32,000 nucleotides of DNA from Prochlorococcus marinus str. NATL2A (GCF_000012465.1 NC_007335.2:1290001-1322000), one strand, 5' to 3'; shown: positions 3,229 to 31,971, numbered from the stretch's first letter. Notes: generated from the sequence alone by a model not told the origin. Numbers and translations are program-made.

Positions 3229-5568
3229 TTGAGTGGTTTCGGGGAAAAGAAAAAAGAGGCTAAAGGCTCTTCTAAAAAACTCCAAAAGCTTTCAGAAAAG
3301 GATCTGAAAGCAAAATCAATCAATAATCATATTAAAGGGAATTTAGATGAAGCAGAGAAAGGGTATATAGCTTTTTTAAGAAATGGTTATTCTGATGCAG
3401 ATATAATTTCAAATTATGCACTCATATGTGAAGAAAAAGGAGAAAATGAGAAAGCAATAAGATTATACGAACAATGTGCTAAAAGTTTTCCAAATCATAT
3501 TTACTCAAAATTAAATTTATCTTTTTTATATTATAAATTAAATCAATTAGAAATAGCAGAAATAATAATTGAAGAAGCAATTCAATTAAAGCCAAGCCTG
3601 CCAAATGGGCATTGTATAAGAGGATTGATTTTAAAAGGTTTAGATAAATATCATGAGTCAAGATTATCACTTGAGAAAGCAATCGAACTAGATAAAAATT
3701 ACTTTGATGCTTATATCAATCTAGGATTATTAAACAAAGATTCTAATAAATATAATGAAGCAGAAGAATATTATTTAAAAGCATTAGAAATAAATAATAA
3801 ATCTGCTATCGCTCATTTGAATCTAGGCGCATGCTACAAAGAGAAACAAGATCTAGATAAAGCCATTTTGCATACAAAGATGGCAATAGAGATAGATAAT
3901 AAATTAGAAAACTGTTATTTAAATCTAGCTACAATATATAACCAAATTGGAGATTATAAAAAATCACTATCACTTACAAAAAAAGAACTTTTATTGCATA
4001 AGCATAGTGAGTTAAGTTATCAACTTATAAGTGAATTAATCAAAAAAGGAGAAGTTTTAAACACATCGGAAAAAGATAATAGAGAATTACTTAAAAATTT
4101 ATTAAATAGAAAAGATATATCTCATCGAGAACTATTTGGGAATATAAACAGCCTTATCTCGAAAGAAATATTAGAAGAATTATCTATTTTAGAATCGAAG
4201 TTGTATGAAAACAGTAAATTTAATATTTTAATTAAAAATAAGGAATTAGTAAAAGCACTTTCTTTGCTAATATTTTGCTCACCATTATGGGAAAAGGTTT
4301 TAGGAAATATACGCAAGAATATTCTATTAAACTATTCAGATAAAGATAAAATAAGTAATAGTATTTTCAACTTTATAATAGGGCTTGGATCACAATGTTT
4401 CTTGAATGAGTATGTCTATTACATATCTACGGAAGAAAAGGATAAACTAAAAGAACTTAAAAAGATAACCAATAATAATAAAAATCAAGACTATAAATTA
4501 GCAATAATCTCTTGCTACCAATCTCTATCTTCAATAAATGATGAAATAATTAATTTAAATACTTATATACCAAATAAAAAAGAATTAAATAGTCTTCTTG
4601 ATTTACAATTTAAAGAGTTGAATGCTGAAAAAATGATTTCAAAAGGAATTAAAAAGATAGGAAATATAAAAGATTCAACATCTAAAGAAGTGAAAAATCA
4701 GTATGAATTAAACCCATATCCTAGATGGAGATACAATTCATATGCTAAAGAAAACAAACTAAACTTTTTATCAGTTATTAATTCAGAAATTTCACCAAAT
4801 ACAATTAAATCTAATTCAGTTCAATTAACAAATAAAAAAATAAATATTCTTATAGCAGGTTGTGGAACGGGTATTCAAATAATTGAAGCATCTCGGTATA
4901 GTAATTGTGAAATAACAGCAATCGATCTAAGCAATTCAAGTATCTCATATGCAAAGAGAAAGGTCGATGAATATGGATTGAAAAATATCAATTTTATAGA
5001 AATGGATTTACTTGAATTGACATCGCTAAATAAAAGATTTGATTTAATAGAATGTTCAGGTGTTCTTCACCATATGAATGAGCCTAGCAAGGGATTATCA
5101 AATCTATTTGACGTATTAGAACCAGAAGGCTTTTTAAAGTTAGGTTTGTACAGCAAGTATGCAAGAGAAGAAATCCTAAAAGCAAGAAAACTAATCAAAG
5201 AAAAAGATATTAAACCAAACATTGATGGAATAAGAAACTTCCGAAATGATCTTCTTAATGGAGAAATTAAAGAGATAAATGAGATAAGTAATTGGTCAGA
5301 TTTCTACTCAACTTCAATGTGTAGAGATCTTTGCTTTCATACCCACGAAAACTGTTATACGCTAATCGAAATTAAAAACATGTTAAAAGTATCTAATCTG
5401 GAATTCCTAGGTTTTACTCTTTCAAAAGAAATTAGAGATAAATATCAGATAGATAATAAAGATAAAGACTCTTTAAAAAATTTAGAATTATGGGATAAAT
5501 TTGAAAAATTAAATCCTAATTCTTTTAGAGAAATGTATCAATTCTGGTCTAGGAAATCAACTAAATAG
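3229..5568 (+). CDS. TPR-repeat protein fused to a class I SAM-dependent methyltransferase
   Basis: 779 aa. N-terminal TPR units (for example AIELDKNYFDAYINLGLL, ALEINNKSAIAHLNLGACY). C-terminal Rossmann motif I ILIAGCGTG, plus FDLIECSGVLHHMNEP. The TTG start is supported by the paralogous N-terminus MSGFGEKKK versus MSGFGEQKK at 28228. Confidence 0.9.
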   Translation: MSGFGEKKKEAKGSSKKLQKLSEKDLKAKSINNHIKGNLDEAEKGYIAFLRNGYSDADIISNYALICEEKGENEKAIRLYEQCAKSFPNHIYSKLNLSFLYYKLNQLEIAEIIIEEAIQLKPSLPNGHCIRGLILKGLDKYHESRLSLEKAIELDKNYFDAYINLGLLNKDSNKYNEAEEYYLKALEINNKSAIAHLNLGACYKEKQDLDKAILHTKMAIEIDNKLENCYLNLATIYNQIGDYKKSLSLTKKELLLHKHSELSYQLISELIKKGEVLNTSEKDNRELLKNLLNRKDISHRELFGNINSLISKEILEELSILESKLYENSKFNILIKNKELVKALSLLIFCSPLWEKVLGNIRKNILLNYSDKDKISNSIFNFIIGLGSQCFLNEYVYYISTEEKDKLKELKKITNNNKNQDYKLAIISCYQSLSSINDEIINLNTYIPNKKELNSLLDLQFKELNAEKMISKGIKKIGNIKDSTSKEVKNQYELNPYPRWRYNSYAKENKLNFLSVINSEISPNTIKSNSVQLTNKKINILIAGCGTGIQIIEASRYSNCEITAIDLSNSSISYAKRKVDEYGLKNINFIEMDLLELTSLNKRFDLIECSGVLHHMNEPSKGLSNLFDVLEPEGFLKLGLYSKYAREEILKARKLIKEKDIKPNIDGIRNFRNDLLNGEIKEINEISNWSDFYSTSMCRDLCFHTHENCYTLIEIKNMLKVSNLEFLGFTLSKEIRDKYQIDNKDKDSLKNLELWDKFEKLNPNSFREMYQFWSRKSTK

Positions 5569-9646: not shown

Positions 9647-11485
9647 TTAAAATCTCTCTGGTCTAGGATTTTTCCAAGTAGAACTAACACCATCTGTTTT
9701 CAAATATTTAGCTCGTCTTTCAATAATTTCTCTATCAAGTCTCCAAACGCTATAAACACCAAAATTACCTAAGACTTCTGGATTAAGTCCTTGCCAATAA
9801 GATTTTTCCACTGATCTTTTATCAATAAGTAAAAGAGTAGTTTGTGATCCATTGGATCCATATATTGGCATTCCTTTCCAGCCTCTTCTCTTCTCATTTT
9901 TAAGTCGATCTGAAACATTTACAAAAGCATTTTTAGATCTACCTTCAAAAACAATGACTTGATTAGTATAAAAATGAATTGAGGGTTTCATAGCTCCTAC
10001 CATTACTAAAGGCTCGTTTCTATTTTGGGAATTTAAAAGTAATTCTGATGCTTGTCTTAATGGGAGTTGTCTTAACCTATCTGCCAAATCAAAAGTTGGT
10101 AAGACAATCAGGAAATGAGATAAAACTAAAGGGATTTGCAAAATTAATAGTTTTCCATATATTTTTCTCGATGAAAATATGATTCCTAGAACAGCAATTA
10201 AAAGAAAAATAAATCCAGCTTTTTCAATTAAAAAGCTATTGTTTAATTCCTCTGAGAAGTTTGGAATCTCAGGATCATTAAGAAGCTGAATCCATAGCTT
10301 TGAAGAGAAAAGAAATATAGAAAAGAGTATTGATAAAAATATTGTAAATTTCCAAGCTAAAGATTTTAAAAATTCCTCTTTAACATTATTAGTTAAGGAA
10401 AGTGATATTAAAACTGATGCTGCAGGAGTAGCAGGAAGCCAATAGCTCGGTAGCTTCGTAGCTGAAATAGTAAAGAACACAAATACAGCTATTAACCAAA
10501 AAAATGAAAACTCAAATAATGACTTTTCTGGTCTTTTTATAACTCTTCTAGACCATTTAGTTACATTGTAAAAATTCTTCCAAATACTTATTAATAAAAA
10601 TGGAGTAAATGGCAAAGAAGCTATACATAATACTGTTAAAAAAAACCACCAAGGCTCCCCATGAGAATTTACTACTGAGGTAAATCTTTGAAGATTATGA
10701 TACCCAAAAAAACTATCTAAAAAGGGTTTTCCCTCGATTAATAATTCAATTAAATACCAAGGAAAACTAATAATAAAGACAAGAAAAAGTCCAGGAATTA
10801 CCCTCAATATTTTTAAAATTCCTAAAGGCTTATTTTGAAAAAAGGCAAAAAATAATATTGTTAATCCTGATAAAACCAATGCTACAGGACCTTTAGTTAA
10901 AACTGCAAATGACAAAAAAATCCAAGACAACCACCAAACTTCTCCTTCTGGATTAGCGAATCTTCTCCATTTAAGAAGCAAACAAATTCCAAGAGTGCTG
11001 CAAAGGAGTGCATCACTTACGGCAATTCTTCCCCAAATTATTACCAAAGGCGACAACGCAAATACCACTGCAGTAATAACTGCAGTCCTTCTATTGAAAT
11101 TATTTTCTTCTTGGGGATATTTCATCATTGTGTCCCCTAAAACAAGCATTAAAAAAATTGTTGATAATGCAGAAGGAAGCCTGGCAGCCCATGTACCTAA
11201 AGGGTCCCAAGAATTATTTCCTGGGATCGAAAATCCCAGTCCCATTAACCAATAGACCAAAGGTGGCTTGTCAAATCGAGGTAATCCATTTACTTGAGGA
11301 GTAAACCAATTACCCGTTTCTGCCATTGCTCTACTGGCTGCCGCAAACAAAGGTGGTGTTTCATCAACCAAACCTGTTTTCCCTAATTGCCAAACAAAAA
11401 TTATTAATCCAATAAATAAAATACAAAGAAGACCACGTCTTCTTTGTATTAAAGTTGGGTAAAAAGATTTAGTTAAACTTTTCAA
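9647..11485 (-). CDS. GT-C fold glycosyltransferase, family 39 (ArnT/PMT-like)
   Basis: 612 aa with more than 10 TM helices. First-loop acidic motif GLVDETPPLF, then RFDKPPLVYWL, as in ArnT/PMT_2 proteins. The TTG start abuts the stop of the upstream gene (taattg). Confidence 0.85.
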   Translation of the reverse strand: MKSLTKSFYPTLIQRRRGLLCILFIGLIIFVWQLGKTGLVDETPPLFAAASRAMAETGNWFTPQVNGLPRFDKPPLVYWLMGLGFSIPGNNSWDPLGTWAARLPSALSTIFLMLVLGDTMMKYPQEENNFNRRTAVITAVVFALSPLVIIWGRIAVSDALLCSTLGICLLLKWRRFANPEGEVWWLSWIFLSFAVLTKGPVALVLSGLTILFFAFFQNKPLGILKILRVIPGLFLVFIISFPWYLIELLIEGKPFLDSFFGYHNLQRFTSVVNSHGEPWWFFLTVLCIASLPFTPFLLISIWKNFYNVTKWSRRVIKRPEKSLFEFSFFWLIAVFVFFTISATKLPSYWLPATPAASVLISLSLTNNVKEEFLKSLAWKFTIFLSILFSIFLFSSKLWIQLLNDPEIPNFSEELNNSFLIEKAGFIFLLIAVLGIIFSSRKIYGKLLILQIPLVLSHFLIVLPTFDLADRLRQLPLRQASELLLNSQNRNEPLVMVGAMKPSIHFYTNQVIVFEGRSKNAFVNVSDRLKNEKRRGWKGMPIYGSNGSQTTLLLIDKRSVEKSYWQGLNPEVLGNFGVYSVWRLDREIIERRAKYLKTDGVSSTWKNPRPERF

Positions 11486-12595
11486 TTAATCTTGCAAGTC
11501 TGCTGAGATTTTCTTATTTAAGCCTTTATGAAGCCAATTCTCCACTCTTTCTGCAAAGACTTTGCTGGTGGCTTTTTTTTCAAACCAAGCTCTACAATTT
11601 TTTCTTTTGATTTCTGAGATTGATTTTGTTGCTTTTATCAAACCTTCAATATCATTGGGCTTAACCAAAAAGCCATTGAATCCATCTTCGATCAATTCGC
11701 CTGGTCCTCCCAAATCATATGCAATTACAGGAACACCACAAGCCATCGCTTCAACAATAACATTGCCGTAGGCTTCATTCCATTTGGGCGTGTTTATTAA
11801 CGCTCTGCATCGTCCAAGTTGTTCCTGAAATTTATTCGTTGGAAGAAATCCTTTCCACTCAACAATTTCGTTTGTGAAGGTATTTTCAATTTTTGATGCA
11901 TATTCTTTATCTTCTATGAGTCCCCAAACTAATAATTTTTCACCCAAATCATTCGCAACTTTTACTGCATCTTCTAAACCTTTCTCTGGCGCTATTCTTC
12001 CAGCCCAACCTAATGGTCCATTCTCCATTTCATTGAATAAATAATCATCCGTATCAAAACCATTTCCAACGATAATTGGATCAGTTTTTAAAGAATAATC
12101 TTTAGATTGTCTTTTAGTATGAAAAGCCAGACGAAAAGGAAATAATTCACTTATTTCACTAATAGTTTCTTTCATTACTATTGATTCAGCGCCCATACTA
12201 ATTAAGTGAAATATTTTAATTGATTGTGTTTTTGTTAACCATAATGGAAGCCAATCATATGCAAAATTAATAACTGCGTCGGATTTATTTGCGATATCAA
12301 TTACCTCTTCCCATAAATTTGGTAAGACACTTTTAGAAGGAATTAAAACTGGATCTTTTCTATCCTGATGCTGCCAACTAGGTTGATCAACTCCATCTAT
12401 TAATCTTATTTCAAGCAACTCACTTTCGAAAGGTAATTTTGATCCTTTTGGTGCAATTAAAATAATTTTATGACCTAATGAAATTAATCCTTTTATAAGA
12501 GAAACAATAGTAAGTTCAACTCCTCCGCCTTTGCCACTGCCCAGATAACCTATAGGTGTACTTACAAGAATAAGTTTTAATTGCTTTTTTATCAC
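11486..12595 (-). CDS. GT-B glycosyltransferase, family 4 type
   Basis: 369 aa. C-terminal E-x7-E region EAYGNVIVEAMACGVPVIAYDLGGPGELI. The N-terminal GGVE motif is typical of GT4. Confidence 0.85.
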   Translation of the reverse strand: MIKKQLKLILVSTPIGYLGSGKGGGVELTIVSLIKGLISLGHKIILIAPKGSKLPFESELLEIRLIDGVDQPSWQHQDRKDPVLIPSKSVLPNLWEEVIDIANKSDAVINFAYDWLPLWLTKTQSIKIFHLISMGAESIVMKETISEISELFPFRLAFHTKRQSKDYSLKTDPIIVGNGFDTDDYLFNEMENGPLGWAGRIAPEKGLEDAVKVANDLGEKLLVWGLIEDKEYASKIENTFTNEIVEWKGFLPTNKFQEQLGRCRALINTPKWNEAYGNVIVEAMACGVPVIAYDLGGPGELIEDGFNGFLVKPNDIEGLIKATKSISEIKRKNCRAWFEKKATSKVFAERVENWLHKGLNKKISADLQD

Positions 12596-12600
12596 TTAAA

Positions 12601-13584
12601 CTAAGCCTCTTTTATTAATTCATTATCACTTTTATTCCCCCAGAATCTTCGTCTCTGACTTACAAATAGTACTGATATTAAAACCAAAACTACTCCAATC
12701 CACTGAAGGAGAAAAAGTCTCTCCCCTAACCAAATCCCGCCAGTAATCAAGGCAAATACAGGCGTTAAAAATGCAAGGGTGCTAAAGCTTGTTAATTCTT
12801 TTCGACTTGCAAACCAAAAAAATAATCCATAGGCCAATGCGCTACCAAACAAACTTGAATAAGACATCAAAGTCCATTCAAAAGCAGACCAGTCTGGAAA
12901 CAATGGCCAGTTTTTATCGAAAACATGCCAAACGATAAGAGGAACACTTCCTAGAACCATGTGCCATCCAGTTACAGCAACAGGATCACTTTTTCTACAA
13001 GCAAATCGAATAAGCACCGTCCCTAAAGCCATCGAGGTTGCTGCGCATATCATCCATACTTCTCCATGGCTTAAAAAATTACTTCCTGATTCAAAGTTGC
13101 CAAGTAAAAACCAATTTCCTAGTAATTCAGTAGGGACTCCAAGACAAATTATTCCAACCAAGCCAAGCACCAAGCCAATCCATCCAATTGGATTAATTGC
13201 ATCTCCAAACAGAATTCTTGCTAACAAAGCAACCATCAAAGGTTGGGAATCTATAAGAACAGAACCCAATCCTGCGCCAGTTTCCATTAACCCTTTGGCT
13301 AGAAAAATCTGAAAAAGGGTTGCGTCAATCAAAGTAAATACTAAAAACCACACCAAATCATCTTTTGAAATATTCCAACTCCTCTTCAAGAAAGGAACTG
13401 AAGCTAAAACTACTAGACCAGCAGGCAAAAGCCTTAGTGAGGCTACAATCTCAGGTCCCGCGGCATTAACCAAAGGTGCCATCGCCGCCATTGAGGTCCC
13501 CCAAAGAGCGAAGGGCAAAATCATCAAAAACCAATTCCAAATGACAAACATAAGGTCAGAAAGCAATCTCCTTTTTAAGATCAA
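12601..13584 (-). CDS. EamA/DMT-superfamily transporter (10 TM)
   Basis: 327 aa built from two EamA-like halves of hydrophobic helices. The track start is TTG; the ATG at 13551 (MFVIWNW...) is an alternative. Confidence 0.8.
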   Translation of the reverse strand: MILKRRLLSDLMFVIWNWFLMILPFALWGTSMAAMAPLVNAAGPEIVASLRLLPAGLVVLASVPFLKRSWNISKDDLVWFLVFTLIDATLFQIFLAKGLMETGAGLGSVLIDSQPLMVALLARILFGDAINPIGWIGLVLGLVGIICLGVPTELLGNWFLLGNFESGSNFLSHGEVWMICAATSMALGTVLIRFACRKSDPVAVTGWHMVLGSVPLIVWHVFDKNWPLFPDWSAFEWTLMSYSSLFGSALAYGLFFWFASRKELTSFSTLAFLTPVFALITGGIWLGERLFLLQWIGVVLVLISVLFVSQRRRFWGNKSDNELIKEA

Positions 13585-26653: not shown

Positions 26654-27517
26654 TTAATTATCCAATCCTATTATTGAATCTTCAAGAATTAATCTAGTGA
26701 TTCCCTTTGAGATTAAATATGACTGTGAAAGTTTAAAAACGCTTGTGTTTGGGATCTTAATAACTCTCTGACTTCTAGAACATATTCTTTTTGCTGAACG
26801 TTGATTAGAAAATAATAAAATTGCTTTTCTTTGCAATTCATTTTCTGGCAAAAAGCTCCATTCTGGTAAATCAGAAATAAGTTGTAACTCTAGTTCTACT
26901 TTCTTATCAACAATCATATAAACGCTCTCTGGAAGACATTCATAATCAAGTATCTCAAAATCCGATTTTTGCTTCTGTAGGTCAAAATCAAAACCAGAAA
27001 CAAGGGGGGCTATTTCCTCGAAATTATCATCAAAGTTTTGATTATTTATATCCTTATCATAATCTTTACTTTTTTGAATAACGGAATATTGATCTTCTAC
27101 AAATCCATCAGCATCCTCAGGGTCTAAAGAAGTAATTTCATCAACACCAAGTCTATGATATTCCTCATTTACCTTTAAATATTGATCTTCTTCTTTAATT
27201 TTTTCTTTAAATGAAATTAATAAACTTTCATTTTCTAAATCTTCCTTTTCTTGTTTTACCTTTTCATTCTCAACCAATTTCTCTTTTTTATTGATGATCT
27301 TTGATCTTTTTTTCTTTAAAAGTGTATATTCACTCTCAGACAAAAGAGTTTTGACTGTTCTATTTATAGTATTTGGAGTGCAATTATATTTTTCTGCTAA
27401 GGCATTAGTATTATCTCCAGACCTATATGCCTCTAGGATTTCAGTCTTTTGTGTCTTGGTCAATCTTCTTGAAACCATCTCTATTATTTCTATATATCCA
27501 AGATAAGACTTAATCAT
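26654..27517 (-). CDS. hypothetical protein with N-terminal helix-turn-helix-like region and acidic middle
   Basis: 287 aa. The probable true start is MVSRRLTKTQKTEILEAYRSG at 27478. NALAEKYNCTPNTINRTVK looks like an HTH. Confidence 0.6.
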   Translation of the reverse strand: MIKSYLGYIEIIEMVSRRLTKTQKTEILEAYRSGDNTNALAEKYNCTPNTINRTVKTLLSESEYTLLKKKRSKIINKKEKLVENEKVKQEKEDLENESLLISFKEKIKEEDQYLKVNEEYHRLGVDEITSLDPEDADGFVEDQYSVIQKSKDYDKDINNQNFDDNFEEIAPLVSGFDFDLQKQKSDFEILDYECLPESVYMIVDKKVELELQLISDLPEWSFLPENELQRKAILLFSNQRSAKRICSRSQRVIKIPNTSVFKLSQSYLISKGITRLILEDSIIGLDN

Positions 27518-27795: not shown

Positions 27796-27869
<74 letters not shown>

Positions 27870-27925: not shown

Positions 27926-27958
27926 AAAAAAGGTGAGACATCTGAGGTCTTTTTTTTG
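27926..27958 (+). terminator. weak hairpin plus T8 run downstream of the tRNA
   Basis: aaaaaaggtgagacatctgaggtctttttttt. Only agac/gtct (plus a G-U pair) can form a stem. Flanked by an A-run and a T8 run. Confidence 0.3.
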
Positions 27959-28227: not shown

Positions 28228-28935
28228 ATGAGCGGTTTTGGAGAACAGAAAAAGTCAAAAAAGAAAAGCAATAAAAAGACCACACATTCTAAAGAAGAAA
28301 TAATAAATCAAGCATTTAAGTTTCATTCACAAGGAAATATTCGAGAAGCTACAAAATATTATCAAAATTTTATAAGTCAAGGTTTCAAGGATCACAGAGT
28401 TTTTACTAATTACGGAGGCATATTAAGAAATCTTGGAAAATTAAAAGAAGCAGAATTATTAACCCGTAAAGCAACTGAGCTAAAACCTGATTTCGCAATG
28501 GCGCACTCCAACATGGGAACCATCTTGATAGATCTTGGTAAATTAAAAGAAGCAGAACTATCTACACGCAAAGCGATTGAACTCAATCCTTATATTGCAA
28601 ATGATCATTTAAATCTTGGAAACATATTAATTGAACTTGGTAAATTAAAAGAAGCAGAATTATCTACTCGCAAAGCGATTGAACTTAATCCTGACTTAGC
28701 TGATGCTCATTACAATCTAGGTATCATCCTGAAATATCTAAACAAGTTAGATGAGTCTATATACTGTTACCAGAAAGCTATAGATTTAAAAAAAGATTTA
28801 AAAAAAGCGATAGCAGAAATGGGAGTTACGATGACCTTAATTGGAAATTACAAAGAAGGACTTCAAAAAATAAAAGAAGGCTATGGTTCAATTATCTTTA
28901 ACCACACAACTAATTCTATGAAAATTGAAATTTAA
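28228..28935 (+). CDS. TPR-repeat protein (TPR-only member of the local family)
   Basis: 235 aa with at least five 34-aa TPR units, including near-identical GKLKEAELSTRKAIELNP units. The N-terminus MSGFGEQKK matches the 3229 gene. The TPR block closely matches the N-terminus of the 29613 gene. Confidence 0.85.
   Translation: MSGFGEQKKSKKKSNKKTTHSKEEIINQAFKFHSQGNIREATKYYQNFISQGFKDHRVFTNYGGILRNLGKLKEAELLTRKATELKPDFAMAHSNMGTILIDLGKLKEAELSTRKAIELNPYIANDHLNLGNILIELGKLKEAELSTRKAIELNPDLADAHYNLGIILKYLNKLDESIYCYQKAIDLKKDLKKAIAEMGVTMTLIGNYKEGLQKIKEGYGSIIFNHTTNSMKIEI
28432..28692. repeat. 102-bp-period intragenic repeats (three consecutive TPR units)
   Basis: 57-nt cores start at 28432, 28534 and 28636. 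The 28534 and 28636 cores match at 54/57 by my count, and the 28432 core matches 28636 at 47/57. A fourth copy at 29880 in the next TPR gene matches at 50/57. Confidence 0.85.
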
Positions 28936-29534
28936 TGGAAAGATTAAACACACCAATTTCAAATCTACACCCTAATTTTATTAGCTCTTGGATCATAAAA
29001 CCACTTTCATTATGCGATGATCTCATAGAGTATTTTGAATCAAATAAAGCAAATCAAAAAAAAGGATTAACGGGAAGTGGTTTAAATACTAATAAAAAAG
29101 ATAGTTTTGACATAGTCATTAGGCCAAAAGAAATAATATTACCTAGAAATGAGGTTTTCAAAAAATACTTTGAAAAACTTTTTGAATGTCATAGTGATTA
29201 CATTTCTCAATGGCCTTTTATAAACAATCTTTGTCAAAAATATGAAATTGGGTCTTTTAATCTACAAAGATATACACCAGGCCAGCATTTTAAGGAAATC
29301 CACACTGAGCGAACAGGAATAGGAACTCTTCATCGCGTTTTTGTTTTTATGACATATTTAAATGATGTAAAAGAAGGAGGTTCAACATATTTCAGCCACT
29401 ATGATCTGGAAATTGAACCTCGAAAAGGCTTAACTTTAATTTGGCCTGCTGAATGGACACATGCCCACAGAGGTAACATATTAAAAGCTGGAAAAAAATA
29501 CATCATTACGGGTTGGATCAATTTCCCTAGTTAA
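28935..29534 (+). CDS. 2OG-Fe(II) oxygenase-fold (double-stranded beta-helix) protein
   Basis: 199 aa. Pattern FNLQRYTPGQHFKEIHTE (His-x-Glu), YLNDVKEGGSTYF, distal His in WTHAHRG and KYIITGW. This resembles the approximately 200-aa putative 2OG-Fe(II) oxygenases common in marine cyanobacteria and cyanophages. Start overlaps the upstream stop (TAATG). Confidence 0.75.
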   Translation: MERLNTPISNLHPNFISSWIIKPLSLCDDLIEYFESNKANQKKGLTGSGLNTNKKDSFDIVIRPKEIILPRNEVFKKYFEKLFECHSDYISQWPFINNLCQKYEIGSFNLQRYTPGQHFKEIHTERTGIGTLHRVFVFMTYLNDVKEGGSTYFSHYDLEIEPRKGLTLIWPAEWTHAHRGNILKAGKKYIITGWINFPS

Positions 29535-29612
29535 TGTTTACACTAATTCAATACTTTAGGATAAGAAGAAAATGAACAAACTAAATTAATAAAACCAGTA
29601 CAAGAAGAAAAA

Positions 29613-31598
29613 ATGAAGCGATCAGATAACAAGAAAAACAAACAACTCTACAAGGTCTCAACATTCCCTGTTCCAGCTGATTTAGGGGCAGATCATAGAA
29701 ATCTGACCCTTAATACATATACTCTTTCTCAACCCTCAAAAGAAAAAATAATTGATCAAGCATTTAAGTTCCATTCACAAGGAAACATTTCAAAGGCAGA
29801 AAAATATTATCAACTTTTCATCAACCAAGGTTTGAAAGACTTCAGAGTTTTCTCTAATTATGGAGCAATTTTACTAGATCTTGGTAAATTAAAAGAAGCA
29901 GAAATATTAACTCGCAAAGCAATTGAACAAAACCCTGATTTCGCAATAGCGCAATTCAATCTAGGAAAAATACTACAAAATCTTGGCAGATCAAAAGAAG
30001 CATTTGATTGTTATGTAAAAGTAACTAAAATTGATCCAAAATTTCCTAATATTTACGAGACCATAACAAGTTTTCTAGGAAACTCAAATTCATCTCTACT
30101 AAATCACACTAAACTTATAGATATTTTAAATCTTCTATTAGAAAGAAATGACATCACACATAACGAATTATTTGCAGCATTTAACTTTTTATATAATGAT
30201 AAAATAATCTCTCATTTAGAAAAACTTGATTCAGATTTATTTAAAGAGGAATCATTTAAATTATTTATTAATGATAAACTTATAATGAAAGCACTTAAAA
30301 AAATAACTTTTAAGGATCTTAGATTGGAGAAAATACTAACTAGGATAAGAAAATATATATGCGAAGTGATTAGCAATAACACAGAAGAAATAGATTACTC
30401 TGAATTACAATTTATTATTGCTTTAGGAGAACAATGCTTCCTAAATGAATATATTTACTCACTATCAGAAGAGGAAGATTCATTTCTTAGTACAATAATG
30501 AATAGATGTATTAATGGCGAAATAAGTGAAACAAATATTTCAATTCTATCTTGTTATTTTCCCTTATATAAACTTCTTGATAAGTTGCCATCATTAAATT
30601 CTTTTAATTCCTCTAATCAAAGCTTAAAAGAACTTATCAAATTACAAATATTAGAGCCCTTAGAAGAAATAGAATTGTCTAAAAGTATAAAAAAAATAGG
30701 TTTTATTTATGATGATATTTCTCAAAAGGTGAAATCTCAATACGAAGAAAATCCATTTCCCAGATGGAGATATGGAAGCAACTTAGGAAGTCATAAAGTC
30801 TCTATTAGTCAAGCAATTAACAATGAAATTAAACCTAACTTTATAAGTCAAAATTTAAGTGATAGTAATTTAAAGGTTCTCATTGCTGGATGTGGAACTG
30901 GTAATCAAATCTTACAAGCACAGAGATATAAAAATGCTCAGATAACATGTATCGACTTAAGTATATCTAGTCTTTCTTACGCTCAAAGAAAAATAAATGA
31001 ACTTAAAATTAATAATGTTGAATTAATTCAAATGGATATTTTAGAGGTTTCTTTATTAAAGACTAAATTCGATATTATTGAATGTGGTGGTGTTTTACAT
31101 CACATGAAAGAACCTAATTTAGGGTTAGATTGTTTATTGGATTGTATTGATAAAAATGGTTTTCTCAAGCTAGCTTTGTATAGCAGAATTGCGATCAAAG
31201 ATGTAATTGCTGCCGCCCAACATATTGCCTCAAGGAATTTGGAACCTACTTTAGAAAATATTCATTTATTCAGAGAGGAAGTTTTTTCAGGCAAGTATCC
31301 TGGAAATAAAGATTTTGTCAACTTCAGGGATTTCTACTCTTCATCCGAGTTTCGTGATTTTTTCTTTCATTATCAAGCACATTATATTTATCTAAGTCAA
31401 CTCCAAGAAGTATTGAAGACAAGATCCTTGAAATTCTTAGGCTTTTTGCTATCTCAATCGACTAAATCTCTCTACAAAAACTATTTCCCTGAAGATAAAA
31501 AACAAACCAACTTAGATAACTGGGCAAAGTTTGAAGAGAAGCATCCAAATACTTTCAGAGGAATGTATCAATTCTGGGTTTGTAAAACTAAAAACTGA
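29613..31598 (+). CDS. TPR-repeat protein fused to a class I SAM-dependent methyltransferase (paralog of 3229-5568)
   Basis: 661 aa. Shares these motifs with the 779-aa protein: ALGEQCFLNEYIY, NPFPRWRY, VLIAGCGTG, FDIIECGGVLHHMKEP, MYQFW. Confidence 0.9.
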   Translation: MKRSDNKKNKQLYKVSTFPVPADLGADHRNLTLNTYTLSQPSKEKIIDQAFKFHSQGNISKAEKYYQLFINQGLKDFRVFSNYGAILLDLGKLKEAEILTRKAIEQNPDFAIAQFNLGKILQNLGRSKEAFDCYVKVTKIDPKFPNIYETITSFLGNSNSSLLNHTKLIDILNLLLERNDITHNELFAAFNFLYNDKIISHLEKLDSDLFKEESFKLFINDKLIMKALKKITFKDLRLEKILTRIRKYICEVISNNTEEIDYSELQFIIALGEQCFLNEYIYSLSEEEDSFLSTIMNRCINGEISETNISILSCYFPLYKLLDKLPSLNSFNSSNQSLKELIKLQILEPLEEIELSKSIKKIGFIYDDISQKVKSQYEENPFPRWRYGSNLGSHKVSISQAINNEIKPNFISQNLSDSNLKVLIAGCGTGNQILQAQRYKNAQITCIDLSISSLSYAQRKINELKINNVELIQMDILEVSLLKTKFDIIECGGVLHHMKEPNLGLDCLLDCIDKNGFLKLALYSRIAIKDVIAAAQHIASRNLEPTLENIHLFREEVFSGKYPGNKDFVNFRDFYSSSEFRDFFFHYQAHYIYLSQLQEVLKTRSLKFLGFLLSQSTKSLYKNYFPEDKKQTNLDNWAKFEEKHPNTFRGMYQFWVCKTKN

Positions 31599-31605
31599 GT
31601 GCATC

Positions 31606-31971
31606 CTAGATTTTTCTAACTCGATTGTTATACGAGGAATCAGCAGCTAATCCAGCCAGGGAAATTATTTGTTTCGAGCAGGCAGCAACACCACTGGATT
31701 GGTTATTGATAAGTCTAAGTCCTTTCTGCATCCCCTGTTCAAGATTTACGAGTAGTTTTGCAACCATTTGCGGCCGCTCAATATTGATCTCTTCAAAGTC
31801 TTGAACAATCAAGTCCATTGCCTTGGCTGTGATCCTTCGATCTTGCCCTCTGCTTAATTCGTACTCTTGGGTCACTCGGCTCGTTACGACAATGCAGCTG
31901 TAGCCTTGAGCAAGCAAGTCAGCAGGAAAACCTGCCCTTAATTCCATCTCTTGTTTATTAGCTTTTTTCAT
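31606..31971 (-). CDS. hypothetical protein in a compositionally foreign (about 44% GC) segment
   Basis: 121-aa ATG ORF, convergent with the methyltransferase gene across a 7-bp gap. I counted 158 G+C in 360 nt (31621-31980). No domain recognised. Confidence 0.6.
   Translation of the reverse strand: MKKANKQEMELRAGFPADLLAQGYSCIVVTSRVTQEYELSRGQDRRITAKAMDLIVQDFEEINIERPQMVAKLLVNLEQGMQKGLRLINNQSSGVAACSKQIISLAGLAADSSYNNRVRKI

What the first reader, a model, noticed from the sequence alone, without database searches (positions are those of the whole stretch)
28228..31598. tRNA-Arg-adjacent cassette: TPR protein + coupled 2OG-Fe(II) oxygenase + TPR-methyltransferase fusion (candidate TPR-guided modification system)
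Three same-strand genes start 358 nt downstream of tRNA-Arg.
- The TPR-only ORF (28228-28935) ends in TAATG, sharing one nucleotide with the start of a DSBH/2OG-oxygenase-like ORF (28935-29534). This implies translational coupling and probably a complex.
- After a 78-nt gap comes a 661-aa protein with the same kind of TPR module fused to a conserved middle domain and a class I SAM methyltransferase.
- The two TPR modules are close paralogs: INQAFKFHSQGNIREATKYYQNFISQGFKDHRVFTNYGGILRNLGKLKEAELLTRKATELKPDFAMA versus IDQAFKFHSQGNISKAEKYYQLFINQGLKDFRVFSNYGAILLDLGKLKEAEILTRKAIEQNPDFAIA.

So closely related recognition modules are paired with two different chemistries: an oxidation or hydroxylation (in trans) and a methylation (in cis). 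That points to a shared macromolecular target, such as a protein, peptide or surface polymer. I know of no characterised pathway with this architecture. Its position in a tRNA-flanked variable region suggests an accessory role, possibly cell-surface or phage-interaction related.
Basis: partly seen in the sequence, partly recalled or inferred. Interest (0 to 1): 0.7.

Follow-up and report, generated by a model that had tools for sequence, protein, structure and literature searches.

The report
Split TPR–prolyl-hydroxylase-like enzyme pair
Two of the three genes form a TPR-plus-oxygenase unit of unknown substrate that is conserved across abundant marine bacteria and probably hydroxylates a protein, while the neighbouring TPR-methyltransferase is a loosely linked member of a larger family of TPR-tagged enzymes.

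Summary
The window is Prochlorococcus marinus NATL2A. The three ORFs, the TAATG overlap, the 78-nt gap, tRNA-Arg 358 nt upstream and the 63%-identical TPR modules are all present.

The 199-aa protein is a prolyl-4-hydroxylase-like 2OG/Fe(II) oxygenase. It has a DSBH fold and invariant H123, E125, H178 and K188.

The real unit is two genes, not three.
- In about 80 loci from cyanobacteria, proteobacteria and Flavobacteriales, only the oxygenase and a TPR gene directly upstream of it are conserved.
- That partner carries a diagnostic C-terminal tail found only in proteins that precede such an oxygenase.
- Many relatives are single-chain TPR–tail–oxygenase fusions.
- Cyanophage homologs lack the partner.

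The TPR-methyltransferase most resembles the protein lysine methyltransferases Rv2067c and rickettsial PKMT1/2. It is multi-copy, has a second copy in this window, and lies near the pair in only some Prochlorococcus.

In Prochlorococcus the same N-terminal TPR module also carries sulfotransferase, O-GlcNAc-transferase-family, glycerophosphotransferase and other oxygenase domains. The pairs cluster next to tRNA genes.

Best reading: a two-subunit protein hydroxylase, set within an island-borne set of TPR-targeted tailoring enzymes. The substrate is unknown. I rate it a new variant of a known kind, of moderate interest.

The parts
27796..27869 (+). tRNA-Arg (anticodon TCT), the island-boundary marker 358 nt upstream of the cassette
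   Evidence: Found by ARAGORN. Prochlorococcus TPR/oxygenase pairs are enriched next to tRNA genes: 8 of 25 lie within 800 bp against about 0.8 expected.
28228..28935 (+). TPR partner subunit (235 aa). It has a basic, presumably disordered N-terminus, then TPR repeats, then a conserved C-terminal tail.
   Evidence: Pfam finds TPR families only. A same-strand TPR ORF abuts the oxygenase in 79 of the ~80 distinct loci.
28288..28503 (+). Shared N-terminal TPR module (aa 21-92, ...INQAFKFHSQGNI...KPDFAMA)
   Evidence: 63% identical to aa 42-146 of the 661-aa protein. An HMM of this module hits 41 ORFs, all in Prochlorococcus, that carry many different C-terminal enzyme domains.
28822..28932 (+). 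Partner-specific C-terminal tail (aa ~199-235, ...GNYKEGLQKIKEGYGSIIFNHTTNSMKIEI). I infer it is the docking or junction element to the oxygenase.
   Evidence: The tail is conserved in all partners, including Pelagibacter. A tail HMM hits 79 ORFs, always at the C-terminus and always directly upstream of an oxygenase. In natural fusions the same motif lies 20-30 aa before the oxygenase domain.
28933..28937 (+). TAATG stop/start overlap between the TPR gene and the oxygenase gene
   Evidence: Read directly from the sequence. Junctions of -4, -1, 0 or +1 nt dominate across the 82 loci.
28935..29534 (+). Prolyl-4-hydroxylase-like 2OG/Fe(II) oxygenase (199 aa, PMN2A_0816). Ligand codons: H123 at 29301-29303, E125 at 29307-29309, H178 at 29466-29468, K188 at 29496-29498.
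   Evidence: PF13640, E 6e-11. Sequence matches to solved P4H structures. The ligand residues are invariant. AF2 model pLDDT 81; Foldseek top hits are prolyl hydroxylases.
29613..31598 (+). TPR-methyltransferase fusion (661 aa). It is a loosely linked neighbour, not part of the conserved unit.
   Evidence: Pfam. Relatives lie near the pair in only 6 of ~27 Prochlorococcus loci. The family is multi-copy.
29736..29951 (+). N-terminal TPR module of the 661-aa protein (aa 42-113), paralogous to the module in the TPR partner
30051..30680 (+). All-helical middle domain (aa ~147-356). It has no Pfam family and is restricted to this TPR-methyltransferase family.
   Evidence: The AF2 secondary structure is all helical. 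A search with this region alone gave 36 hits; those with Pfam calls carry N-terminal TPRs and/or a C-terminal methyltransferase, and many are fragments.
30849..31586 (+). Class I SAM methyltransferase core (aa ~413-525) plus an alpha/beta C-terminal extension (aa ~529-658), resembling protein lysine methyltransferases
   Evidence: Pfam methyltransferase families. PDB sequence search: 8hkr (Rv2067c) E 7e-15, PKMT2 E 5e-9, PKMT1 E 2e-5. Foldseek top hits are 8hkr and then PKMT1/2.
3229..5568 (+). Second TPR-methyltransferase paralog (779 aa) in the same window, with no oxygenase beside it
   Evidence: Pfam. 38% identical to the 661-aa protein across the middle, methyltransferase and C-terminal domains.

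Best explanation
The core of the finding is a two-subunit enzyme.

The pair. The 199-aa protein is a prolyl-4-hydroxylase-like 2OG/Fe(II) oxygenase. The 235-aa TPR protein encoded directly upstream is its dedicated partner. The two genes are translationally coupled. I infer that the partner's conserved C-terminal tail (...EGL...G.G.I.F...) docks onto or leads into the oxygenase. I also infer that the TPR superhelix recruits a protein or peptide substrate and presents it to the active site, where a side chain (proline is the default guess) is hydroxylated using Fe(II), 2-oxoglutarate and O2. This is the logic of the collagen prolyl 4-hydroxylase alpha subunit (TPR peptide-binding domain plus catalytic domain), but split into two genes.

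The methyltransferase. The adjacent 661-aa gene is a separate enzyme: a TPR-guided methyltransferase related to protein lysine methyltransferases. It belongs to a multi-copy family.

The wider set. In low-light Prochlorococcus the same N-terminal TPR module is attached to hydroxylases, methyltransferases, sulfotransferases, an OGT-family glycosyltransferase and others. These genes accumulate in tRNA-linked genomic islands.

Shown: the fold and ligands, the conserved pairing, the partner-specific tail, the natural fusions, the module sharing and the tRNA linkage.

Inferred: physical complex formation, a protein substrate, the residue modified, and any common target.
For: Oxygenase identity
- PF13640 is above threshold.
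- Sequence matches to Bacillus anthracis P4H, human collagen P4H alpha-2, PBCV-1 P4H and lysyl hydroxylase LH3.
- H123, E125, H178 and K188 are invariant in 30 homologs and align to the P4H HxD...H...K positions.
- AF2 model pLDDT 81, pTM 0.83.
- Foldseek top 50 hits are almost all prolyl or lysyl hydroxylases.

The pair is one unit
- Clustering all ORFs from 82 loci, only two families are shared: the oxygenase (80 loci) and the TPR partner (79 loci). The next best family is in 12 loci.
- Junctions are mostly -4, -1, 0 or +1 nt.
- The partner in Pelagibacter is also TPR.
- A tail HMM hits 79 ORFs, all at the C-terminus and all directly before an oxygenase. These include two extra pairs I had not targeted. 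No other TPR protein in the loci is hit.
- Partner tails co-diverge with their oxygenases: Mantel r 0.74 within Prochlorococcus, with 0 of 2000 permutations as high.
- About 20 of the top 37 representatives are 320-570 aa long. All 8 tested are TPR+PF13640 single chains with the tail motif between the two parts.

Methyltransferase
- Best characterised relatives are Rv2067c and rickettsial PKMT1/2, by sequence and by fold.

Module sharing and islands
-.
- TPR families are reported as enriched in low-light strains (PMC11357015).
Against: - No substrate was identified. No conserved third gene and no obvious proline-rich or collagen-like neighbour was found.
- The match to the P4H peptide-binding TPR family (PF23558) is below threshold.
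- PF13640-type folds also occur in small-molecule enzymes; PolD and PasI appear lower in the Foldseek list.
- Phage homologs work without any TPR partner, so the TPR is not needed for catalysis as such.
- The complex could not be modelled here.
- There are no expression or biochemical data, and no paper mentions PMN2A_0815-0817.
- The acidic ligand is Glu rather than the Asp typical of P4Hs.
Confidence: 0.6

Rival explanations
1. The three genes form one dedicated pathway in which the TPR protein, the oxygenase and the TPR-methyltransferase act together or in sequence on one target, for example hydroxylation followed by O-methylation.
For: - The three genes are on the same strand, with a 78-nt gap and no predicted terminator.
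- The N-terminal TPR modules are 63% identical.
- The trio is conserved in NATL2A-type contigs.
- TPR-methyltransferases lie within 8 kb of the pair in 6 of ~27 Prochlorococcus loci. By rough estimate this is more than chance for a family of about 4 copies per genome.
- Hydroxylation followed by methylation or sulfation has been proposed for bacterial dioxygenase clusters (PMC2938197).
Against: - The methyltransferase is absent from the pair's neighbourhood in about 75 of 82 loci, and among non-Prochlorococcus loci only L082 has a weak relative.
- Where it is present, its distance and side vary and other genes intervene.
- The family is multi-copy with variable TPR number.
- A paralog lies 25 kb away without an oxygenase.
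- The shared module is common to at least eight enzyme types.
- The nearest characterised methyltransferase relatives are lysine N-methyltransferases, not O-methyltransferases.
Confidence: 0.12
2. The pair is a unit, but the TPR subunit is a stabilising, regulatory or localising partner rather than a substrate binder. The oxygenase then acts on a non-protein substrate such as a free amino acid, a secondary metabolite or an envelope glycan.
For: - Phage homologs at 37-40% identity work without a TPR partner and sit in tandem dioxygenase arrays that have been proposed to make secondary metabolites (PMC2938197).
- The NATL2A island downstream encodes polysaccharide-type enzymes: WbqC, a pyruvyl transferase, an acetyltransferase and formyltransferase fragments.
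- Other enzymes on the same TPR module include a glycerophosphotransferase and GT9-like domains typical of glycan work.
- Collagen P4H also needs a non-catalytic subunit (PDI) for solubility. This is established knowledge, not tested here.
Against: - The closest structural and sequence relatives are nearly all protein hydroxylases.
- TPR domains fused N-terminal to catalytic domains are the standard way of recruiting protein substrates, and GT41 on the same module belongs to the protein O-GlcNAc transferase family.
- No biosynthetic genes (NRPS, PKS, precursor peptides) are conserved near the pair.
Confidence: 0.18
3. The conserved C-terminal tail of the TPR protein is itself the substrate. 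On this reading the oxygenase modifies its partner, for example on the conserved Phe-Asp/Asn, as a switch or maturation step.
For: The tail is the most conserved part of the partner and lies at its extreme C-terminus in all split pairs. It co-diverges with the oxygenase.
Against: - In the natural fusions the same motif is internal, 20-30 residues before the oxygenase domain. That is what one expects of a structural junction, not of a free substrate peptide.
- The motif has no conserved proline.
- The variable number of TPRs (183-587 aa partners) would have no role.
Confidence: 0.05

Closest known systems
Collagen prolyl 4-hydroxylase alpha subunit (and the P3H/leprecan enzymes), which combine a TPR peptide-substrate-binding domain with a P4H catalytic domain
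   Same: A TPR module lies N-terminal to a P4H-type DSBH catalytic domain with an HxD/E...H triad and a 2OG-binding Lys. The catalytic domain matches human collagen P4H alpha-2 (7zsc), viral P4H (5c5t) and algal P4H by sequence and fold. Fused relatives have the same N-to-C order in one chain.
   Different: - Here the two parts are separate, translationally coupled genes joined by a distinct conserved tail.
- The TPR region is ordinary TPR_1/2 repeats. Its match to the P4H peptide-binding family PF23558 is below threshold.
- No conserved neighbour that could serve as a PDI-like beta subunit was seen, and nothing indicates secretion.
- The acidic ligand is Glu.
- The substrate is unknown.
Stand-alone bacterial and viral prolyl hydroxylases: Bacillus anthracis P4H, Pseudomonas putida PPHD (EF-Tu prolyl hydroxylase) and PBCV-1 vCPH
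   Same: They are of similar size (~200 aa), share the fold and are the best structural matches (TM about 0.6-0.7). All act on proteins or peptides.
   Different: Those enzymes need no TPR subunit. Sequence identity is only 15-24%. The family here is defined by its obligatory TPR partner or fusion.
Cyanomyovirus and pelagiphage 2OG-Fe(II) oxygenases (PHROG 61, listed as 'auxiliary metabolic genes')
   Same: They are 37-40% identical over the full length, occur in 462 phage records, and match phrog_61 at E 2e-38.
   Different: The phage genes lie in tandem arrays of several oxygenases and have no TPR partner. Their function is also unknown (PMC3037559).
Seven-beta-strand protein lysine methyltransferases: M. 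tuberculosis Rv2067c (8HKR) and Rickettsia PKMT1/PKMT2
   Same: The methyltransferase core and part of the following helical subdomain align with them (E 7e-15 to 2e-5). They are the top Foldseek hits for the 661-aa model. All are protein-modifying enzymes.
   Different: Identity is about 20%. Those enzymes have no N-terminal TPR or helical middle domain. Lysine specificity has not been tested for the protein here.
O-GlcNAc transferase (OGT) and SPINDLY (SPY), the standard examples of TPR-guided protein modification
   Same: An N-terminal TPR superhelix is followed by a catalytic domain. The TPRs of the 661-aa protein hit the OGT TPRs best in the PDB. One Prochlorococcus protein with the same N-terminal module carries a true GT41 domain (E 8e-62).
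   Different: The catalytic domains in the window are an oxygenase (in trans) and a methyltransferase, not GT41.

Membership tests
2OG-Fe(II) oxygenase superfamily, prolyl 4-hydroxylase clan (PF13640) | Pfam family score above the gathering threshold | tested here: met
   43.5 bits against a cut-off of 27, E 6.3e-11.
2OG-Fe(II) oxygenase superfamily, prolyl 4-hydroxylase clan (PF13640) | Double-stranded beta-helix fold | tested here: met
   AF2 model pLDDT 81, pTM 0.83. Foldseek hits: 5c5t at E 6e-10; 4j25, 6t8m and PHD2 at TM 0.65-0.70.
2OG-Fe(II) oxygenase superfamily, prolyl 4-hydroxylase clan (PF13640) | HxD/E...H iron-binding triad and a basic residue that binds the C5 carboxylate of 2OG | tested here: met
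   H123, E125, H178 and K188 are invariant in 30 homologs. H178 and K188 align to the distal His and the Lys of B. anthracis P4H. H123-x-E125 sits in the YxxGxxFKxxHxE motif, read directly from the sequence.
2OG-Fe(II) oxygenase superfamily, prolyl 4-hydroxylase clan (PF13640) | Peptidyl-proline 4-hydroxylase activity | not testable with these tools
   This needs an enzyme assay or mass spectrometry.
Collagen P4H alpha-type architecture | TPR substrate-binding domain and catalytic domain in one polypeptide | tested here: not met
   In the window and in the 80 closest loci they are separate ORFs. The feature is met only in more distant relatives: 8 of 8 long representatives tested are fusions.
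Collagen P4H alpha-type architecture | Homology of the TPR part to the P4H peptide-substrate-binding domain (PF23558) | tested here: not met
   18.4 bits against a cut-off of 27, E 0.0024, over aa 7-61 only.
PKMT/Rv2067c-type seven-beta-strand protein lysine methyltransferases | Class I Rossmann methyltransferase core with the glycine-rich SAM-binding motif | tested here: met
   Methyltransf_25, _31, _12 and _11 are all above threshold. G426-C427-G428-T429-G430 is invariant.
PKMT/Rv2067c-type seven-beta-strand protein lysine methyltransferases | Similarity that extends beyond the core into the family-specific helical subdomain, with family members as best hits | tested here: met
   8hkr residues 59-254 aligned at E 7e-15. 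Foldseek ranks 1-7 are 8hkr, 5doo, 5dpl, 5do0 and 5dnk. Identity is only about 20%, so membership is at superfamily level.
PKMT/Rv2067c-type seven-beta-strand protein lysine methyltransferases | Lysine N-methylation of a protein substrate | not testable with these tools
   This needs biochemistry.
Known anti-phage defence systems (PADLOC) | Match to a system-specific protein model together with the other genes of that system | tested here: not met
   Only generic domain hits were found: TPR, '2OG Cas-associated' and the mad2 methyltransferase core. No companion genes are present.
RiPP or secondary-metabolite gene cluster | A conserved precursor peptide or NRPS/PKS/halogenase genes next to the tailoring enzymes | tested here: not met
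   No third family is conserved across the loci. No repetitive or proline-rich small ORF is conserved.

The most novel reading that the evidence does not exclude
Low-light Prochlorococcus, and to a lesser degree other marine bacteria, may run a combinatorial cytoplasmic protein-modification system. In it a single conserved N-terminal TPR module would direct at least eight different chemistries to a common protein target or small set of targets. The chemistries are two types of hydroxylation, lysine-type methylation, sulfation, O-GlcNAc-type glycosylation, glycerophosphorylation and others. A surface or secreted protein seen by phages would be one possible target. The enzyme set would be reshuffled at tRNA-linked islands, giving strain-specific patterns of modification. 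The TPR/P4H-like pair would be the oldest and most widespread member of this toolkit.
Probability: 0.15. Interest if true: 0.8.

Novelty: new variant of a known kind. Interest (0 to 1): 0.55.

Why it matters
The TPR/oxygenase pair occurs in several of the ocean's most abundant bacterial groups: Prochlorococcus, SAR11, SAR116, Methylophilaceae, Halieaceae and Pseudohongiella. Its catalytic half is also one of the commonest "auxiliary" genes of cyanophages, and the function of that gene has been open since at least 2010.

Three things follow from this work:
- Showing that the cellular enzyme always comes with a dedicated TPR subunit, or is fused to one, gives a practical handle. The TPR part can be used as bait to find the substrate.
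- The work offers an explanation for the reported excess of TPR proteins in low-light Prochlorococcus. Many of them are targeting modules on tailoring enzymes.
- If the target is a protein, this would be a widespread bacterial counterpart of collagen-type TPR-guided hydroxylation.

Tried and rejected
1. An "MSGFGE.KK" N-terminus shared by the TPR partner and the distant 779-aa methyltransferase looked like a family signal. Only 4 relevant ORFs in all loci have it, so I dropped it.
2. I searched for a conserved third gene or substrate. ORF clustering found none.
3. A scan for proline-rich, collagen-like or repetitive ORFs returned mostly spurious antisense ORFs. The one striking case (L041, 1046 aa, directly upstream of a pair) is a subtilase with Gly-rich linkers.
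4. Defence-system membership: only generic PADLOC domain hits.
5. A TPR partner in phages: tblastn found none in cyanophages, and phage loci show oxygenase arrays only.
6. Recent gene conversion as the cause of the similar TPR modules: DNA identity is 73%, with 45 shared codons against 34 expected. This points to old paralogy under protein-level selection.
7. Literature: no paper mentions PMN2A_0815-0817. Searches on hydroxyproline or post-translational modification in Prochlorococcus found nothing relevant.
8. Modelling the TPR-oxygenase complex or a natural fusion was not possible.
9. Promoter and terminator scans were uninformative: promoter-like sites were at or below the shuffle expectation and no terminators were found.

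Full report
**1. The observation**

The window is from Prochlorococcus marinus NATL2A; the 199-aa protein is PMN2A_0816.
- The three same-strand ORFs lie at 28228-28935, 28935-29534 and 29613-31598.
- tRNA-Arg(TCT) lies at 27796-27869, 358 nt upstream of the first ORF.
- The first two ORFs overlap as TAATG. A 78-nt gap precedes the third.
- Pfam calls ORF1 as TPR only. ORF2 is 2OG-FeII_Oxy_3 (PF13640, 43.5 bits against a cut-off of 27). ORF3 has TPRs followed by a class I methyltransferase.
- The N-terminal TPR modules of ORF1 and ORF3 are 63% identical over 105 residues.

**2. The oxygenase**

- Sequence search of solved structures finds Bacillus anthracis P4H, human collagen P4H alpha-2, the PBCV-1 P4H and lysyl hydroxylase LH3.
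- In an alignment of 30 homologs, H123, E125, H176, H178 and K188 are invariant.
- The motif YtpGQhFKeiH(123)tE(125) corresponds to the P4H YxxGxxYKxHxD motif. H178 and K188 align with the distal His and the 2OG-binding Lys of the B. anthracis enzyme.
- The AlphaFold model (pLDDT 81, pTM 0.83) is a double-stranded beta-helix.
- Its best PDB matches are nearly all protein prolyl or lysyl hydroxylases: PBCV-1 vCPH, Pseudomonas PPHD, Dictyostelium PHD, B. anthracis P4H, Chlamydomonas P4H, LH3 and PHD2.

**3. The conserved unit is two genes**

A scan of one genome per species found 306 relatives of the oxygenase, of which 80 loci were kept. They come from Prochlorococcus (often several paralogs per genome), SAR116, Pelagibacter, Methylophilaceae, Halieaceae, Pseudohongiella, Flavobacteriales and Bdellovibrionales.

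- tblastn with the window's TPR protein hits the DNA immediately upstream of the oxygenase in nearly all loci.
- The junction between the upstream ORF and the oxygenase is -4 nt in 17 loci, 0 in 15, -1 in 6 and +1 in 4. Most of the rest are 10-31 nt.
- The two loci that BLAST missed also have an abutting ORF. The Pelagibacter one was scanned and is TPR by Pfam.
- When all ORFs from the loci are clustered, only two families are shared: the oxygenase (80 loci) and the TPR partner (79 loci). The next family, a TonB-dependent receptor, is in 12 loci and reflects synteny within Pseudohongiella.

**4. The partner has its own signature**

Beyond generic TPRs, all partners end in a conserved tail, with consensus LGSVLLKKGKHKEGLKKLREGFGVISFDLKNGVSI.

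- An HMM of this tail hits 79 ORFs in the loci. The hit is always at the C-terminus, and the ORF is always directly upstream of an oxygenase.
- Among these are two additional TPR/oxygenase pairs in L004 and L021 that I had not targeted.
- The HMM hits none of the many other TPR proteins in the same loci.
- Identity between tails tracks identity between the cognate oxygenases. Mantel r is 0.77 overall and 0.74 within Prochlorococcus, where several paralogous pairs share a genome. None of 2000 permutations reached the observed value. Pairs are therefore inherited and duplicated as units.

**5. Rosetta-stone fusions**

An exhaustive search of 1.84 billion cluster representatives found 4727 relatives, 91 of them at E ≤ 1e-30.

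- About 20 of the top 37 are 320-570 aa long, with the oxygenase domain at the C-terminus.
- All eight that I tested are TPR + PF13640 in a single chain.
- In the fusion sequences the tail motif can be read 20-30 residues before the conserved oxygenase start "PNFIG.W"; the tail HMM scored it there in 5 of 17. P0278 reads ...LGLALLDLGRHAEGLGAIAKGPGIVHF... and then ...PNFIGCW....
- The gene pair and the fusions are thus two forms of one architecture, and the tail is an inter-domain junction.

This is strong evidence that the two window proteins work as one enzyme. It also argues against the idea that the tail is a free substrate peptide.

**6. Phages**

The oxygenase is 37-40% identical to 2OG-Fe(II) oxygenases in 462 phage records, mostly cyanomyoviruses plus Pelagibacter phage HTVC008M. 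It matches phrog_61 at E 2e-38.

- In S-RSM4 and HTVC008M these genes sit in tandem arrays of oxygenases with no TPR partner.
- tblastn with the TPR partner finds nothing in cyanophages.
- The literature treats the phage genes as being of unknown function (PMC3037559; PMC2938197).

**7. The methyltransferase**

- Its methyltransferase core and the following helical region match M. tuberculosis Rv2067c (8HKR, E 7e-15) and Rickettsia PKMT2 and PKMT1. These are seven-beta-strand protein lysine methyltransferases.
- The AlphaFold model (pLDDT 81) has a disordered N-terminus (aa 1-39) and a continuous helical region (aa 43-356) made of the TPRs and then the "middle domain". The Rossmann core is at aa 420-524 and an alpha/beta C-terminal domain at aa 529-658.
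- Foldseek again ranks Rv2067c and PKMT1/2 first.
- The middle domain has no Pfam family. Searched alone, it gave 36 hits; those with Pfam calls carry N-terminal TPRs and/or a C-terminal methyltransferase, and many are fragments.

The gene is not part of the conserved unit.
- Relatives lie within 8 kb of a pair in only 6 of ~27 Prochlorococcus loci. Distance and side vary, and other genes intervene. Outside Prochlorococcus only L082 has one, with weak matches.
- The family is multi-copy: three copies in CP114784.1 and four in MIT 0916. TPR number varies, giving proteins of 570-880 aa.
- The window holds a second copy at 3229-5568. It is 38% identical across the middle, methyltransferase and C-terminal domains and has no oxygenase beside it.
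- Immediate adjacency with a 78-nt gap is seen only in NATL2A-type contigs.

**8. One TPR module, many enzymes**

An HMM of the shared N-terminal module hits 41 ORFs, all in Prochlorococcus loci and always near the N-terminus. Their C-terminal parts are:
- the tail, that is, partners of the P4H-like oxygenase;
- a weakly PF13640-like fused domain;
- 2OG-FeII_Oxy_5 (PF13759);
- Sulfotransfer_3;
- GT41, the O-GlcNAc transferase family (E 8e-62);
- a CDP-glycerol glycerophosphotransferase domain;
- a GT9-like domain;
- the PKMT-like methyltransferase;
- at least two unassigned domains.

An alphaproteobacterial locus (L023) likewise has TPR-CmcI-type methyltransferase and TPR-Oxy_5 fusions beside the pair. 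In 11 gammaproteobacterial and Flavobacteriales loci a stand-alone 2OG-FeII_Oxy_5 gene occurs, in several of them just upstream of the TPR partner.

At DNA level the two window modules are 73% identical, with only a modest excess of shared codons (45 against 34 expected). This indicates old paralogy maintained at the protein level, not recent gene conversion. Conservation of one module across unrelated chemistries is what a common binding partner would produce, but that is an inference. The pattern also fits the reported enrichment of TPR families in low-light strains (PMC11357015).

**9. Island context**

- In Prochlorococcus, 8 of 25 pairs have a tRNA gene within 800 bp, against about 0.8 expected at one tRNA per 45 kb (Poisson P about 1e-6).
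- Six tRNA species are involved: Asn, Ser, Phe, Arg, Ala and Thr. Some of these sites may be orthologous, so the events are not fully independent.
- In other taxa the figure is 1 of 54, with 1.8 expected.
- Downstream of the cassette the NATL2A genome carries polysaccharide-type genes (WbqC, a pyruvyl transferase, an acetyltransferase) and another large TPR protein.
- tRNA-linked islands are an established feature of Prochlorococcus genomes. That rests on my own knowledge and was not tested here.

**10. Mechanism**

Shown:
- a P4H-type catalytic subunit with intact ligands;
- an obligatory TPR partner or fusion with a specific junction motif;
- translational coupling signals at the gene junction.

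Inferred:
- the tail docks on the oxygenase;
- the TPR groove recruits a protein or peptide;
- a side chain is hydroxylated.

Neither the residue nor the substrate is known. None of the proteins has a hydrophobic N-terminal segment, and all the cofactors are cytoplasmic, so the reactions are probably cytoplasmic (inference).

The methyltransferase probably acts independently, on a protein recruited through the same kind of TPR module. Whether the two enzymes share a target is open.

**11. Comparison and novelty**

The closest known systems are:
- the collagen P4H alpha subunit and P3H/leprecan, for TPR plus a P4H catalytic domain;
- stand-alone bacterial and viral P4Hs, for the fold;
- OGT and SPY, for the TPR-guided logic;
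- Rv2067c and PKMT1/2, for the methyltransferase.

What is new is the split form with its dedicated tail, its wide distribution in marine bacteria, and the reuse of one TPR module by many enzyme types in tRNA-linked islands. I found no description of this in the searchable literature. Iyer et al. 2010 did note a TPR-fused dioxygenase family in cyanophage Syn9.

I rate it a new variant of a known kind, with interest 0.55. It is a solid and testable lead, with a clear experimental handle on a long-standing unknown (the marine and phage 2OG oxygenases). It has no substrate yet, and the three-gene "system" as originally proposed does not hold.

Noticed in passing
window 3229-5568 (+): A second TPR-methyltransferase fusion (779 aa). 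It is 38% identical to the 661-aa protein across the middle, methyltransferase and C-terminal domains. It shares the 'MSGFGE.KK' N-terminus with the 235-aa TPR partner. No oxygenase lies next to it.
   Followed up: partly
window 9647-13584 (-): A run of envelope-type genes: a PMT_2 (ArnT/dolichyl-phosphate-mannose mannosyltransferase-like) protein of 612 aa, a GT1-family glycosyltransferase of 369 aa and an EamA transporter of 327 aa.
   Followed up: no
window 26654-27517 (-) and 31606-31971 (-): The two ORFs flanking the cassette belong to no curated family. The 287-aa one is rich in acidic and lysine residues and has only sub-threshold helix-turn-helix hits. The 121-aa one has no hit at all. 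Both are conserved in NATL2A-type contigs.
   Followed up: no
window ~27930-27958 (+): A short, weak hairpin followed by a run of eight T, about 60-90 nt after tRNA-Arg. It could terminate the tRNA transcript, in which case the cassette would need its own promoter. The terminator scan did not call it.
   Followed up: no
L060 6174-6812, with similar genes in L039, L042, L044, L049, L057, L062, L066, L071, L076 and L079: In gammaproteobacterial and Flavobacteriales loci a stand-alone 2OG-FeII_Oxy_5 (PF13759) gene of about 212 aa recurs. In several of them it lies just upstream of the TPR partner, giving a two-oxygenase variant of the module.
   Followed up: partly
L005, L008, L010, L012, L015, L045, L064 and the window: Prochlorococcus TPR/oxygenase pairs sit within 280-720 bp of tRNA genes of six different kinds (Asn, Ser, Phe, Arg, Ala, Thr). 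No such enrichment is seen in other taxa. This suggests repeated insertion at tRNA-linked island sites.
   Followed up: yes
L004 4921-7080: A Prochlorococcus protein with the same N-terminal TPR module carries a GT41 (O-GlcNAc transferase family) domain at E 8e-62. It lies directly upstream of a TPR/oxygenase pair.
   Followed up: partly
P0182, P0187, P0203, P0261: Several TPR-methyltransferase homologs carry the source name 'Translation elongation factor P' in NCBI or UniRef. This is very likely a propagated annotation error.
   Followed up: no
P0364, P0375, P0381: A more distant subgroup of the oxygenase family (motif LVFMTYLNDVTD.GETEFFHQ) has N-terminal extensions of 90-160 aa that are not TPR. 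These extensions are of unknown nature, and the source organisms are not known.
   Followed up: no
L041 3775-6915: A 1046-aa secreted-type subtilase (Peptidase_S8 with PPC domains and GGGGN(G/D)SI repeats) lies immediately upstream of the TPR/oxygenase pair in a Betaproteobacteria MAG. It occurs in this one locus only and is not a collagen-like substrate.
   Followed up: yes
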